From Eledone cirrhosa (lineage: Eukaryota): 64,000 bases of DNA. The DNA is taken from contig OZ024742.1 of assembly GCA_964016885.1 (NCBI GenBank), positions 87,792,001-87,856,000 on the forward strand, given 5' to 3'. Position 1 is the first letter of the stretch. Each line of letters begins with the position of its first letter. Below, piece by piece: positions 13,257-54,000 of the stretch. The notes under the pieces were generated by a model. It saw only the letters and a list, made by a program, of their open reading frames with translations, did not search any database and was not told the DNA's origin. The position numbers were made by a program, and so were the translations under genes.

Positions 13257-13563
13257 CATACACTGCTCTGTAAGAGCATAGACTGCTCAACCGGCATACC
13301 GCCTATGGATGCATCTTAGCTACCACCAGAAACACACACACATACACACACACACACACATATATATATATATATATATATATATATATATATATATATA
13401 TATATATATATATATATATGTATATATATACAACCAGCCTACTCGCCGTCAGGTACCAATCACAAGCTTTCTAACTTGACCACTGGCCATGTGTCAATTC
13501 TTAGCCATTTTGAATTCGTTTCTGGCGAGTATCATTTAAGGAAAATCTTTGTCCACTTGAGTT

Positions 13564-13648
13564 TGTTTCCTGATGATTTCGAAACTCGTTGATTCATCCA
13601 TGATCGTATATTTCCAAAATGCGAATGAAACCACCGGAGGTAGAAACA
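13564..13648 (+). ncRNA. Type I HHR with enlarged stem/loop II (family C)
   Basis: TGTTTC-CTGATGA-TTTCG[40 nt]CGAAT-GAAA-CCACCGGAGG-TA-GAAACA. Confidence 0.75.
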
Positions 13649-14260
13649 TAACTTTGGTATGTTTATGTACATTTGTTCTTCTAACTTTGATTTTGTACCT
13701 AATTGTGTATGGTTAGCTATATTTCTAGTCAATTTCTACGGGCTAGGTAAATATTCTGCGGCTGCGGATCACGGATATAATAGCTATCATTTATTTATCT
13801 ATAGTTTCTTCATAGCTACATTTTAAACTCATAGCCTCGTTTAATTGATTGTTTATGTGGTTGATTATGCTGATTGGGAGAAGAAATGCTGTATATATTG
13901 TATCAAATGATTCTATGGACTTACTGTCTTATATATTGCTCTGGTTGTTGATTATTTAATTAACTAATTATTCATTGAGCCACACCGTGAATGGTTTCCA
14001 AAACATATATATATGTATATATATATATATATGGCTCTGGCTAGTTTATACATATGTAAATCTTTATATTTAATATACTCCCGAAGGTTGAGTAAATCTT
14101 TACGCATTATTAGGCTGCGCTTTCTAGCAACCACCCTACTTTCCGTCAGGCACCAATCACATGGTTTCTGACTTTACCACTGGTCATGTGACAATTCTTA
14201 GCCATTTTGAATTCATTTCTGGCGGGGATCATTTAAGAAACATCTTTGTCCAATTGAGTT

Positions 14261-14343
14261 TGTTTCCTGATGATTTCGAAACTCGTTGATTTATCCATGA
14301 TCGGATATTTCCAAAAAGCGAATGAAACTCAGGGATAGAAACA
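14261..14343 (+). ncRNA. Type I HHR, second unit of family C (stem III decayed)
   Basis: TGTTTC-CTGATGA-TTTCG...CGAAT-GAAA-CTCAGGGA-TA-GAAACA. Confidence 0.65.
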
Positions 14344-14915
14344 TAATTTTCGTATGTTTATGTATATTTTTTCTTGGAACTTTTATTTTGTACCTAATTG
14401 TGTATGGTTAGCTATATGGCTAGTCAATTTCTACGGGCTATTAGAAATACTAGTTAAATCTACTGTGGTTGTGGATCGCAGATAAGATAGCTATCAGTCA
14501 TTTATCTATTGTTTATTCATAGGTACATTTTAATCTGATAGCCTCATTTAATTGATTTTTGATGTGGTTGATTATGCTGATTGGGAGAAGAAATACTGTA
14601 TATATTATATCAAATTACTCTATGGACTTACTTTCTTATATATATATATATATATATATATATATATATATATATATATATATATATATATATATATATA
14701 TATATATATATATATTTATATATATATATATGTATATACACATATATATATATATATATATATATATATATATATATATAAATATATATATATATATATA
14801 TATATAAGTATGTTTGTGTATATATATATATAAGTATGCATACATACATACATATATGTCTACAGACGTATAGTAGTATGTATATATATACATACAACAC
14901 ATATATATATATGTG

Positions 14916-15118
14916 TACGTATGGGTTTGCCGTTAATAGGCATAAGGAAAGTATACGATGCTGACGATAGCTAATAAGCTTGAAACTAGTATATCGTTCT
15001 TGAGTCAGTGTTGAAAAAAAAGGCGATGATGGTTGCCGAACACTGTATGGCATAATTCGAGCTGTTTGTTTACAAACAAACCGAACATTATAATAATTGT
15101 TCGGTAAACCCATACGTA
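14916..15118 (+). mobile_element. Short PLE-type 3' end with HHR and 17-bp inverted terminus, fused to (TA)n
   Basis: tacgtatgggtttgccg at left vs cggtaaacccatacgta at right; the same 3' end recurs at 19133-19153. Confidence 0.75.
14955..14997 (+). ncRNA. Minimal type I HHR (canonical core)
   Basis: ACGATG-CTGACGA-T AGCT AATA AGCT T-GAAA-CTAG-TA-TATCGT; palindromic stem III actagt. Confidence 0.85.
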
Positions 15119-15353
15119 TATATATATATATATATATATATATATATATATATATATATATATATATATATATATATATATTGTTATACTTTGGGAGGGT
15201 CATGTTGCCAATAAGAAACACACGCACCAGTTGCTTTCACTTCAATTTATTATATATTTATAAATTAATAAATTTACAAATCTACAAATTTACAAACCTG
15301 TAAGTTTCTCGTTGGTTGGTAGGTTCCACAACCAGATAGTTGTTTATATATAT

Positions 15354-15398
15354 AGTCATAGTCCTTTCGTCACACACTATGTGACCTCTTCAGTGACT
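15354..15398 (-). ncRNA. Minimal type I HHR in pLTR
   Basis: Minus strand: AGTCA-CTGAAGA-G GTCACA TAGTG TGTGAC-GAAA-GGAC-TA-TGACT. Confidence 0.85.
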
Positions 15399-15701
15399 GG
15401 GGATTCCTTTCTTCGTTTCTGTGCCTTTCCTTTCTTCTTTCCTACGCCATTTTGTTTCTGTGTGTGTGTTGTGTGCTCAGTTTGCGCATGCGCCACATCC
15501 GGGTGTCTGTGTGTGTTTGTGTTCATTTTTCTATTTTTCTATTAATATTTTTCTATTTGTTTATTTATTTATTTATTGTTGGTTGGTTGTTTGTTCTATG
15601 TGTGTGTGTGCTTTCATTTTGTCCTGTGTGTGTTTTCATTTTGTGTGTGTTTTCAATTGTAAGTTGTTTGTTCTATGTGTGTGTGTGTTTTCATTTTGTC
15701 C

Positions 15702-16364
15702 TTAATTGTAAGTTGTGATGTTGCTGTTCCACTCATATTTTCTATTTAATTTTGGTTTTAATTCTTTTATGCTTACTGCCTCTGTAATTTGCCTAAACAT
15801 TGCGTCTTTTCTGTGTGTGGATTCTATTTTTATTTCTATGCTCTCTAATCTACCCCTGTGTTCTATCTTAGCATGTTGGTAGAGCACAGATGATTCTTTA
15901 TTATCTTGGAGGTCTCGCCAGTGTTCATTTATTCGTTCCCCTATACTACGAGCTGTCTCACCTATGTACACTATATTTTTATTTCTACATTGTCCTTCAG
16001 TACATCTTATGCTATACACTACATTTCTAGTTTTACAGTTAATATGGGGGCTTATTTTACAGATTATACATTTCTTATCTATACATGAGGGTCTTTGGAA
16101 CGGGTATGTCTTGCTCATAAGTGTTTTTACGGAGGTACCAGGTCTTTCTACTATCTTAATATTGAGATTATGTTTATTTAGGGCCCTTCTAAATTTGTAG
16201 GCTAGTTCGCCTCTAGGGGTTGTATTGATGAACATTACACTCTGGTATTTATTGCTATCATACCATGAGTTTATTCTATTGGCCTTGTTCCTAGTTCCTT
16301 CTATTCTATTCCAAAATTTGCTCCTATACAAGGGGCAGGACCCATTTATGTCATTATTTACCAT
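15702..16364 (-). pseudogene. PLE Cys-rich linker and GIY-YIG endonuclease
   Basis: CIDKKCIIC...CKTRNVVYSIRC...C...VYIGETARSIGERINEH...SVLYQH...RQITEAVSI...LNRKYEW; out of frame with the RT. Confidence 0.9.
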
Positions 16365-51657: not shown

Positions 51658-51667
51658 ATATTATATA

Positions 51668-51778
51668 TAATTGTTTCTAGTTTTGGCACAAGGCCAGCAA
51701 ACACCCAGTGCATTACTGGTACTTTATTTTATAGACCCGTAAGGACCAAAAGCAAAGTTAACCTCAGCGGGATTTGAA
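51668..51778 (-). mobile_element. SINE (OK-like), 3' half, tail-to-tail with the preceding copy
   Basis: Reverse complement of SINE body. Confidence 0.85.
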
Positions 51779-51877
51779 TATATAATATTTGTCAGTTACT
51801 TCACTCGAAAGCATGTGTTAAAGATCAGGCACACAATAACCCGCATGTAACCAGTTTATCTTTCTGCATTATTAAGA

Positions 51878-51974
51878 TTAATTTTGCCTTTCATCCTTGC
51901 GCGGTCGATAAAAGAAAGTACCAGTAACGTACTTGGATAAGTGCTGGCCGTGTGCCAGCAGTAGAAGCGATTAT
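51878..51974 (+). mobile_element. SINE (OK-like), diverged 3' half
   Basis: ttttgcctttcatccttgcgcggtcgataaaagaaagtaccagtaa. Confidence 0.8.
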
Positions 51975-53004
51975 GTCGGTAAGATTAGAGAAACGTAAAA
52001 ACTCATTTTGAGGTTTGGCAAGATAAATGATGCACTGAGTTGTTTCCTGTAAACTCCCAAATACCGCGAACTGTATTAAGTTCTTCGATTTGAAGAATAC
52101 TGGATATAATGTGTTGTACATAGTTAATGAAACGACTTCTAGTTGCAAGAATACGAAAGCTTAAAAGCAATATGATATCAATATGGATTAAAATGGTATT
52201 CTAATCAGTCACCGTATTCAAGAATATTGCATTTTTATCATAGCATTATTAGTTCTAAATATGATTTTCATGCACACTGCATTAGATATAACAAAAGGAG
52301 ATCATTACAGTAAGCTACCTTATTTTCAGATATCCAGATAAAATAATTGAGTTTATTCAGAGAGAGTTAGATAATATCAGACACAGTATTTACATGATTA
52401 CTTTGATACGCAGTTCTTCGAATATAATAGATTAAATTGTGTGCTCGAGACGCCAAACATTCCTAACCATATGAAGCTGTAGCAGTGTATAGTATGGCCT
52501 ATAAGGATATGGCGTTTTATTGGCGTTCCATTATATATATCTATTTATTAGCATGTATTTCTCTGTATATACCACTTCCAGTCTATCTCATACATTTATA
52601 TAAAAATTGAAAACTCAATCGATACAGAAACGCAGAATCACACACACATGGACACAAATGCGCACTTACCTGTTTGCACCTGTATAGCAATGAAACGCCA
52701 CACCACATCTCTTAAGGAAAAGCAAAAGTCATTAGTAAACATATATATATACATATATATATATATAATATATTTAGAAACACACAGATACATGCGGACA
52801 CACACATATACATGAATGCAGCCACACCCAACCGTGAGTTAAGGGTGCCAACCTCACCGATGTTGCTCAATGAATGACTGGGACAGACCAATCCGGTTGA
52901 ACTAGACTGAACCAGTATCAGAGTTAAAAATACATTATGAAGAGAGAAGAAACATTTAGATATAATTAGTAATGAAATGTATCATACCTAAACTGCTCCT
53001 AGAT

Positions 53005-53094
53005 TCCTCGACTACGTAGTTTCGTGGCATAAACAAAAACAATACATCATAAAGATATAGAGTCCTTGCGAGGTCTGCCGACTTATCAAGAGGA
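53005..53094 (-). ncRNA. Type I HHR, U3-A8 variant (family A, intact)
   Basis: Minus strand: TCCTC-TTGATAA-GTCGGCA...TGCCAC-GAAA-CTACGTAG-TC-GAGGA; palindromic stem III actacgtagt. Confidence 0.75.
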
Positions 53095-53735
53095 TACCTC
53101 ATTTTACTAGCCTCAAGAGCGCGTCTACACGACGTGAGAAAGAATCCCAAAAGGCGGAGGGGGGGGGGATAGTCACGCGATATAACGGTCGAGAAACAGA
53201 GCTAAGCCTCTTATAACCCCGAAGAAAATACCACGGAGGCGGAGGGGGTATTTATATCGAAGCCGTAGAAGAGGTGGTGAAGGAGGCAAGAAGTATGAGT
53301 AATGGCAGCTTTCCAGCAGTCACTACACTTCAAAGATTACTCGACCAGAGGGAGTTATTAACAATATATTTAGAAACACACAGATACATGCGGACACACA
53401 CATATACATGAATGCATCCACACCCAACCGTGAGTTAAGGGTGCCAACCTCATGTGTTTCTAAATATATTGTTAATAACTCCCTCCTGTCGAGTAATCTT
53501 TGAAGTGTAGTGACTGCTGGAAAGCTGCCATTACTCATACTTCTCGCCTCCTTCACCACCTCTTCAACGGCTTCGATATAAATACCCCCTCCGCCTCCGT
53601 GGTATTTTCTTCGGGGTTATAAGAGGCTTAGCTCTGTTTCTTGACCGTTATATCGCGTGACTATCTCCCCCTCCGCCTTTTGGGATTCTTTCTCACGTCG
53701 TGTAGACGCGTTCTTGAGGCTAGTAAAATGAGTTA

Positions 53736-53825
53736 TCCTCTTGATAAGTCGGCAGACCTCGCAAGGACTCTATATCTTTATGATGTATTGTTTTTGTTTA
53801 TGCCACGAAATTACGTAGTCGAGGA
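53736..53825 (+). ncRNA. Type I HHR, U3-A8 variant (family A)
   Basis: TCCTC-TTGATAA-GTCGGCA...TGCCAC-GAAA-TTACGTAG-TC-GAGGA. Confidence 0.72.
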
Positions 53826-54000
53826 ATCTAGGAGCAGTTTAGGTATGATACATTTTATTACTAATTATATCTAAATGTTTCTTCTCTCTTCATAATATAT
53901 ATATATATATATATATATATATATATATATATATATATATATATATATATATATATATATATATATATATATATATATATATATATATATATATATATAT

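What the first reader, a model, noticed from the sequence alone, without database searches (positions are those of the whole stretch)
13431..53896. Three unrelated families of large non-coding, hammerhead-bearing tandem elements that all land in (TA)n: a candidate microsatellite-targeted retrozyme/circular-RNA system
Seen: families A (593 nt; 20136-20855, 43369-43963, 52767-53896), B (541 nt; 29507-30422 plus 36512-36722) and C (~697 nt; 13431-14637) show no sequence similarity to each other by eye, have no credible ORF, carry exactly one type I HHR per unit, occur as 1.0-1.7 head-to-tail units (A and B also with inverted pieces), and have 3' ends fused to (TA)n. Established: retrozymes are non-autonomous HHR retroelements that yield circular RNAs; described metazoan ones are typically a few hundred nt and are proposed to use PLE proteins; PLEs give partial tandem and inverted insertions. 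Inference: these are unusually large metazoan retrozymes mobilised in trans by TA-targeting PLEs like those in this window. Three families in 64 kb implies high genome-wide abundance. I cannot confirm they are undescribed.
Basis: partly seen in the sequence, partly recalled or inferred. Interest (0 to 1): 0.9.

Follow-up and report, generated by a model that had tools for sequence, protein, structure and literature searches.

The report
Penelope-mobilised hammerhead retrozymes with paired ends
These are three abundant families of non-coding repeats, each unit carrying a predicted self-cutting hammerhead RNA, joined to TA microsatellites and likely copied by Penelope retrotransposon proteins; their back-to-back insertions almost always carry one short and one long end, which likely records how that machinery primes twice on one RNA.

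Summary
Observation largely confirmed. Families A (595 nt), B (541) and C (~697) are unrelated and ORF-less, with one type I hammerhead per unit (A has a U3-A8 core). They are abundant in this 3.0 Gb genome (2,052-4,878 first-look candidates) and their 3' ends mostly abut (TA)n. They are non-LTR retrozymes / non-autonomous Penelope-like elements (PLEs), a known kind. The size is not unusual: a 2026 preprint gives 51-972 bp.

Head-to-head insertions carry one of each in 82 of 84 classifiable loci (105 examined). Autonomous Neptune-like (9 of 10) and Hydra-like (6 of 6) PLEs here do the same. This is the PLE 'tail' signature, longer than the 30-40 nt described. In family A both arms and all units of an insertion share one haplotype (arm mismatch 7/252 versus 1200/7099 between loci).

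Best model: a PLE RT-EN dimer cuts both strands of (TA)n and primes at two internal sites on one monomer template, probably a circle. No ORF-linked parent was found. Self-cleavage and circles are untested.

The parts
13431..14637 (+). Family C insertion: one unit (13431-14127) plus partial unit, ending at the short 3' end (unit position 506) in (TA)n
13564..13648 (+). Family C type I hammerhead; long helix II with U-U at its base; predicted cut after 13642
   Evidence: compensatory changes in a 70%-identical relative in L019
20136..20855 (+). Family A insertion inside repeat D: 28-nt inverted arm (20136-20163), partial unit, full unit; both ends are the 595 end (an exception to the one-of-each rule); hammerhead 20694-20783 has a helix III mismatch
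29507..29772 (-). Family B inverted arm ending at the short 3' end in (TA)n; holds the intact hammerhead 29666-29747 (predicted cut after 29673)
29769..30422 (+). Family B direct arm: full 541-nt unit plus 113 nt; hammerhead core decayed
30423..36507 (+). Gypsy-type LTR retrotransposon (LTRs 94% alike; RT, RNase H and integrase in broken frames) splitting family B, with a 4-nt target duplication
36508..36722 (+). Continuation of the family B direct arm; ends at unit position 324 without TA
43369..43963 (-). Family A single unit between (TA)n tracts, 99% identical to many genomic copies; hammerhead 43441-43530 with a helix I mismatch
52767..53452 (-). Family A left arm of a head-to-head insertion, ending at unit position 168 in TA; intact U3-A8 hammerhead 53005-53094
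53453..53896 (+). Family A right arm, ending at unit position 594/595 in (TA)n; intact U3-A8 hammerhead 53736-53825
15182..19134 (-). Neptune-like PLE (PLE1): RT plus GIY-YIG with CxxxxCxxC linker, frameshifted; minimal hammerhead 15354-15398; short 3' end in (TA)n. Candidate class of mobiliser
60315..63243 (+). Hydra-like PLE (PLE2): CxCx5C linker, broken frames, degenerate TA-like 3' end; boundaries approximate
19341..21671 (-). Repeat D, two copies (19341-20067, 20941-21671) with hammerheads 19389-19453 and 20989-21053; elsewhere the 3' end of a Hydra-like PLE

Best explanation
A, B and C are ORF-less hammerhead-bearing repeats with PLE-type ends, likely non-autonomous passengers of the genome's TA-targeting Penelope-like elements, whose RT-endonuclease would cut both strands of a (TA)n tract and prime reverse transcription at two fixed internal sites of one monomer-length RNA, likely a circle. 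SHOWN: one type I hammerhead per unit; two fixed 3' ends per family, each at a short AU-alternating motif; one of each end per head-to-head insertion; one haplotype across both arms and all units in family A; the same end anatomy in autonomous PLEs. INFERRED: tandem copies are transcribed, self-cleave and are ligated to circles; a protein dimer engages both sites of one RNA; each RT runs round the template for a variable distance, giving partial tandems; the two cDNAs are joined at short microhomologies; if only one priming succeeds, a single-orientation copy results; very long arrays grow further by unequal exchange. Odds: PLE-mobilised non-autonomous elements about 0.9; two coupled primings on one template about 0.6; that the template is a hammerhead-made circle about 0.55.
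For: END RULE: one of each end in A 26 of 27, B 36 of 37 and C 20 of 20 classifiable head-to-head loci (binomial p 2e-7, 3e-10, 1e-6 against 0.5); autonomous PLE1 9 of 10 with a ~60-nt tail that continues into the next unit; PLE3/D 6 of 6 with a ~85-nt tail. ONE TEMPLATE: arm mismatch at 16 informative columns 7/252 within loci against 1200/7099 between loci, permutation p 2e-4, and six locus-private variants on both arms of four loci. Across 44 A loci, 61 variants are uniform over all covering pieces, 3 partial and 94 single; 13 units on both arms of L163 share one rare variant. INDEPENDENT ARM LENGTHS: 10, 11 and 5 of 26 simple loci fit containment one way, the other way, or neither; 18 of 26 junctions overlap by 1-10 nt. 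HAMMERHEAD CONSTRAINT: boxes intact in 146 of 149 (A), 60 of 79 (B) and 50 of 63 (C); core deviates less than non-core (B 18/869 vs 346/5744; C 16/693 vs 262/4912); in B only N7 varies freely; compensatory helix changes in the L019 relative. Circular folds z -7.1, -3.5 and -3.9 against 20 shuffles. LITERATURE: PMC11167929 shows in vitro that a PLE cuts and extends both strands and starts at two internal RNA sites that bound the tail, with a predicted dimer.
Against: No autonomous PLE sharing sequence with A, B or C was found, so the mobiliser is unassigned. 21 of 105 head-to-head loci had an unclassifiable end. Four B calls rely on a lenient class (32 of 33 without them), and two C loci are segmental duplicates of each other. 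Window copy 20136-20855 and L022 have the same end twice, L243 and L165 have two long ends, and L296 joins a B arm to a Neptune-like PLE arm, so two different RNAs can end up in one structure. PMC11167929 found hammerhead cleavage unnecessary for insertion in vitro and no RNA-seq ends at the cut site. The 2026 preprint saw cleavage in only 1 of 9 tested elements. The 34-unit array L287-L289 shows higher-order repeats, so array length is partly post-insertion. L025 and L006 show partial variants that a pure monomer template does not explain. Loci are top-scoring hits, not a random sample.
Confidence: 0.6

Rival explanations
1. Same PLE machinery and two start sites, but the template is an uncleaved multimeric transcript of a homogeneous tandem locus (or the pLTR region of a parent PLE not yet found). 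The hammerhead is an inherited passenger and no circle is needed.
For: Hammerhead mutants still insert in vitro (PMC11167929). Repeat D in this window is exactly such a pLTR of a Hydra-like PLE. Homogeneous arrays such as L163 exist and could be sources. L025 fits a multimer register.
Against: Units carry about one private change each (94 singles), so multimer templates should give partial patterns, yet there are only 3 against 61 uniform. The hammerhead core is under constraint. No ORF is joined in sense to A/B/C in 151 merged loci.
Confidence: 0.22
2. Head-to-head copies arise by fold-back self-priming (as proposed in PMC3846280), so arm two is a copy of arm one, and endonuclease resolution of the hairpin makes the tail. 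This would also explain identical arms and unequal ends.
For: It explains shared private variants with no need for two primings. Some junctions are near-palindromic (L028, L277). It was proposed for PLEs in print.
Against: A fold-back in one fixed direction needs one arm always inside the other. Observed: 10 one way, 11 the other, 5 neither, and three of those five share private variants. In vitro both strands are extended from a sense RNA. Later deletions at the palindrome centre could blur this test.
Confidence: 0.13
3. They are satellite-like repeats spread at DNA level (unequal exchange, extrachromosomal circles) or retroposed by LINEs; the TA flanks and hammerheads are incidental.
For: Arrays of 14 and about 34 units, the latter with higher-order repeats; TA tracts are common in the window.
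Against: Dispersed copies with fixed 3' ends, variable 5' ends and the PLE tail rule; no poly(A) tails seen; constrained hammerhead core.
Confidence: 0.05

Closest known systems
Non-LTR retrozymes of metazoans (Cervera and de la Pena 2020, PMC7229834; Li, Clavereau and Pollet preprint 10.64898/2026.07.22.740005)
   Same: Non-coding tandem units with one type I hammerhead, GC below 50%, predicted self-paired circles, thousands of copies, co-occurring with PLEs; size within the 51-972 bp range of the preprint.
   Different: Larger than the 150-450 bp of the 2020 paper. Long helix II extensions, and a U3-A8 core in A. TA-linked, head-to-head insertions with two fixed ends were not mentioned in the text I read or searched. 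No sequence link to a parent pLTR was found here, unlike 21 of 57 Xenopus families.
Penelope-like elements, EN+ clades Neptune and Hydra (Craig et al. 2021, PMC8557442; Arkhipova et al. 2013, PMC3846280)
   Same: Partial tandems, inverted 5'-truncated arm, tail often at one end only, (TA)n targeting, hammerhead near the 3' end.
   Different: No ORF. The distance between the two ends is 88, 141 and 168 nt against 30-40 nt described (60 and 85 nt in this genome's autonomous PLEs).
Poseidon PAc from green anole, in vitro (Frangieh et al. 2024, PMC11167929)
   Same: Two internal RT start sites bounding the tail, both target strands cut and extended, AT-rich target.
   Different: There the start sites are described as not homologous to the target and no strand difference was seen. 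Here both ends lie at short AU-alternating motifs, and the two sites are used one per arm.
Non-autonomous Chlamys elements such as MRC1 (PMC8557442)
   Same: ORF-less PLE passengers with multicopy head-to-tail insertions.
   Different: Those generally resemble an autonomous family at the 3' end, and Chlamys elements mostly lack canonical hammerheads.
LINE-1 twin priming (recalled, no call)
   Same: Two target ends prime on one RNA and give an inverted arm joined by microhomology.
   Different: In L1 the second site is variable and the arms do not overlap; here both sites are fixed and the arms overlap and exceed one unit.

Membership tests
Non-LTR retrozyme | One type I hammerhead per unit | tested here: met
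   Boxes intact in 146/149 (A), 60/79 (B) and 50/63 (C); constrained folds within 1.1, 2.2 and 6.0 kcal/mol of the free MFE; descriptor 6 hits vs 0.07
Non-LTR retrozyme | Head-to-tail tandem repeats, dimers to multimers | tested here: met
   1 to about 34 units
Non-LTR retrozyme | Non-coding, GC below 50% | tested here: met
   Longest ATG frame 55-76 aa; GC 0.42, 0.40, 0.34
Non-LTR retrozyme | Unit size in the described range | tested here: met
   541-697 nt: above 150-450 bp (PMC7229834) but inside 51-972 bp (preprint)
Non-LTR retrozyme | Predicted stable self-paired circle | tested here: met
   z -7.1, -3.5, -3.9 against 20 shuffles each, one natural unit per family
Non-LTR retrozyme | Self-cleavage of the transcript | not testable with these tools
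   Needs a bench assay
Non-LTR retrozyme | Accumulation as monomer linear and circular RNA | not testable with these tools
   Needs RNA data or a Northern blot; see Tried and rejected
Non-autonomous PLE | Partial tandems with variable 5' truncation and an inverted 5'-truncated arm | tested here: met
   105 of 153 clusters are head-to-head
Non-autonomous PLE | Optional tail, on one end only | tested here: met
   82 of 84 classifiable loci; spacing 88-168 nt, longer than 30-40 nt
Non-autonomous PLE | Microsatellite (TA)n insertion bias | tested here: met
   3' ends with TA in a strict 20-nt test: A 70/72, B 63/90, C 47/72. Whether the TA pre-existed is shown by only three empty-site analogues
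Non-autonomous PLE | 3' or pLTR sequence similarity to an autonomous PLE family | tested here: inconclusive
   None found against 73 PLE1/PLE2 loci, repeat D, or 0.86 Mb of masked loci; only a few of the genome's PLE families were sampled
Autonomous PLE | ORF with RT and GIY-YIG endonuclease | tested here: not met
   Units join unit to unit with no ORF
LTR retrozyme (plant) | Type III hammerhead in LTRs | tested here: not met
   Hammerheads are type I, in tandem units

The most novel reading that the evidence does not exclude
These families give the first genomic footprint of the full PLE integration step on retrozyme RNA. A PLE dimer primes both cut target strands at two fixed sites, up to 168 nt apart, on a single hammerhead-made RNA circle, and both RTs roll round it. 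This would at once identify the mobiliser of animal retrozymes, explain head-to-head PLE insertions and the one-sided tail, and show that unrelated circles can recruit PLE proteins without detectable pLTR homology.
Probability: 0.4. Interest if true: 0.75.

Novelty: new variant of a known kind. Interest (0 to 1): 0.5.

Why it matters
Two questions are stated as open in the papers read: which machinery moves animal retrozymes, and how PLE tandem/inverted insertions and tails form. Family A is young (99% identical copies) and abundant, so its insertions preserve the footprint. The one-short, one-long rule and the shared haplotype of both arms turn the two in vitro start sites into a coupled mechanism with exact, testable coordinates. 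As a class the elements are not new; the value lies in the mechanism and in a ready substrate for the existing in vitro PLE assay.

Tried and rejected
Rfam: 0 matches at gathering score; no hammerhead among the 150 of 190 weak matches shown.

RNA evidence: no RNA holder listed for family A. Four runs of unrecorded kind were laid as contigs. One contig goes back by 595 nt, but tandem DNA gives the same picture, so it is not used.

Parent PLE: BLAST of units against 73 PLE loci, short 3' queries, tblastn of flanks, junction inspection of L283, L231 and L260, extended loci and profile search of masked loci found no ORF in sense continuity. A loose-end motif had 0 matches in the genome. Repeat D was considered as a fourth retrozyme family and rejected: it is a PLE 3' end.

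Empty sites: of 153 clusters, 5 gave paired flank hits, one a self-match and one a replaced PLE tail. The other three show TA already present, short in one; too few to say whether TA is also synthesised.

No fixed distance from the hammerhead cut to either end (77-435 nt), so the ends are not ribozyme cut sites.

Earlier scan findings: none in 3 look-ups.

Literature: searches did not list a paper on cephalopod retrozymes or a count of the one-of-each rule. The library lacks most subscription papers, Dfam and Repbase were not available, and no supplements were read (bioRxiv supplements are closed; the preprint's species table may bear on novelty).
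Full report
SETTING. The window lies in a 3.0 Gb assembly. The only named protein relative retrieved for the window's PLE endonuclease is from Octopus bimaculoides at 51% identity, so a cephalopod is likely (inference). The window holds many TA tracts, a Neptune-like PLE at 15182-19134, a Hydra-like PLE at about 60315-63243, and a Gypsy element. 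Clade labels rest on linker motifs described in PMC8557442 (passages), not on a tree. These two PLE queries gave 47,025 and 70,890 first-look candidates, which are not copy numbers.

OBSERVATION. A, B and C are present where stated, are mutually unrelated and lack ORFs. Rfam does not detect the hammerheads. A strict type I descriptor gives 6 hits against 0.07 expected: C at 13564, B at 29747, two in A (53094, 53736), the minimal hammerhead of PLE1, and one at 14955. Family A uses a U3-A8 core in 147 of 149 copies, a covariant already reported in Schistosoma PLEs (PMC4209133, passage). In B the only freely varying core position is N7, and core columns deviate about one third (B) to one half (C) as often as neighbouring columns. 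A 70%-identical relative of C in L019 keeps the core with compensatory helix I and II changes. Several window copies are decayed, and B is one insertion split by the Gypsy element.

GENOME-WIDE ANATOMY. Searches gave 2,052, 2,570 and 4,878 candidates, of which 39-40 were scored each. With further searches and fetches I analysed 45, 55 and 51 merged loci (153 clusters); these are top hits, not a random sample. Each family has two recurrent 3' ends: A at unit positions 595 and 168, B at 44 and 132, C at 506 and 647. For A and B both ends, and for C the short end, were read directly at short AU-alternating motifs. Of 105 head-to-head clusters, 84 had both ends classifiable and 82 carried one of each (A 26/27, B 36/37, C 20/20). 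Four B cases use a lenient class, two C loci are duplicates, and 21 loci were unclassifiable. Two window A copies were outside this count: one obeys the rule (52767-53896) and one does not (20136-20855). On a circle the spacing in A can be read as 168 or as 427 nt; I could not tell which.

CONTROL IN AUTONOMOUS PLEs. In pairs I picked from the hit lists as adjacent opposite-strand matches, PLE1 shows a short end and a long end with a ~60-nt tail that runs on into the next unit. Nine of 10 readable pairs have one of each, L165 has two long ends, and two loci were unreadable. Repeat D, the 3' end of a Hydra-like PLE, has an ~85-nt tail, one of each in 6 of 6 readable pairs. PLE2's degenerate TA-like end could not be classed. 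This is the PLE tail, described as 30-40 bp and often on one end only (PMC8557442, PMC3846280; passages). PMC11167929 (main text up to the start of the methods) ties the tail to two internal RT start sites and shows both target strands cut and extended.

ONE TEMPLATE PER INSERTION. In family A the two arms differ at 7 of 252 informative cells, against 1200 of 7099 between loci (permutation p 2e-4). Of 27 loci, 22 are fully concordant, and six variants private to one locus sit on both arms. The one locus with the same end twice (L022) has discordant arms. Leaving out the 34-unit array and 12 nt at 5' junctions, 61 variants are uniform across all covering pieces of a locus, 3 are partial and 94 are single. 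This points to a monomer bottleneck, as expected from rolling round a circle, though a homogeneous multimer source is not excluded. Arm lengths vary independently, which disfavours a fixed fold-back. The 34-unit array shows higher-order repeats and so grew after insertion.

PARENT. No PLE sharing sequence with A, B or C was found, but few PLE families were sampled. One locus (L296) joins a B arm head-to-head to a Neptune-like PLE arm across a short shared sequence, both with long ends. It hints at a Neptune-type mobiliser for B or reflects a later deletion; n = 1.

COMPARISON AND NOVELTY. What it works like: a non-autonomous PLE. Membership: all sequence-testable features of non-LTR retrozymes are met; cleavage and circles are untested. 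PMC7229834 (parts 2-4 of 6 plus passages) describes 150-450 bp repeats that yield circles and names PLEs as strong candidate mobilisers. The 2026 preprint (abstract through discussion) extends sizes to 972 bp and argues a PLE origin from pLTR homology. Neither text, as read or searched, mentions tails or head-to-head insertions. PMC6962438 (passages) reports 235 Rfam hammerhead hits in giant squid without further analysis. So the class is known and the size is ordinary. The addition is the tail signature on ORF-less retrozymes, the longer tails, the counted one-of-each rule and the shared haplotype.

VERDICT. Real feature; new variant of a known kind; interest 0.5. The most novel reading not excluded is coupled twin initiation on a single ribozyme-made circle (probability 0.4, interest 0.75 if true).

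Noticed in passing
window 15097-15181 and 19133-19207: PLE1 is flanked on both sides by the same ~21-nt sequence followed by (TA)n, which looks like a long target-site duplication.
   Followed up: partly
L296:111-784 and 790-3400 (approx.): A family B arm joined head-to-head to a Neptune-like PLE arm (about 66-68% protein identity to PLE1) across a short shared sequence; both arms have long ends.
   Followed up: partly
L287-L289 (G000:C1, 20.3 kb) and L163-L164 (8.5 kb): Head-to-head arrays of about 34 and 14 family A units; the larger shows 3-5-unit higher-order repeats, a satellite in the making.
   Followed up: partly
window 19341-21671: Repeat D: two tandem pLTR copies of a Hydra-like PLE with hammerheads, interrupted by family A; 3,297 first-look candidates.
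   Followed up: yes
window 45674-45724: A further type I hammerhead-like motif about 85 nt upstream of a (TA)n tract, probably another family's 3' end.
   Followed up: no
window 14912-15117: Small element with inverted ends between TA tracts and a minimal hammerhead-like motif at 14955-14997.
   Followed up: no
L019:2119-3066: A diverged (70%) relative of family C, also head-to-head, with compensatory hammerhead changes.
   Followed up: partly
L295:1843-3895: Family C units of about 789-803 nt caused by an expanded internal (CA)n(TA)n tract.
   Followed up: no
L267-L270: Four near-identical C loci whose second end lies at unit position 37, next to a Hydra-like fragment; likely segmental copies of one event.
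   Followed up: no
window 18413-18784: Low-complexity Asn/Thr-rich repeat region in the N-terminal part of the PLE1 frame, similar in kind to the N-rich inserts reported in rotifer PLEs.
   Followed up: no
window 4294-4797, 51545-51778, 54044-54223; 23028-23217, 47639-47804, 51472-51662, 56243-56369, 58220-58418: Palindromic MITE-like elements and a dispersed ~190-nt repeat family.
   Followed up: no
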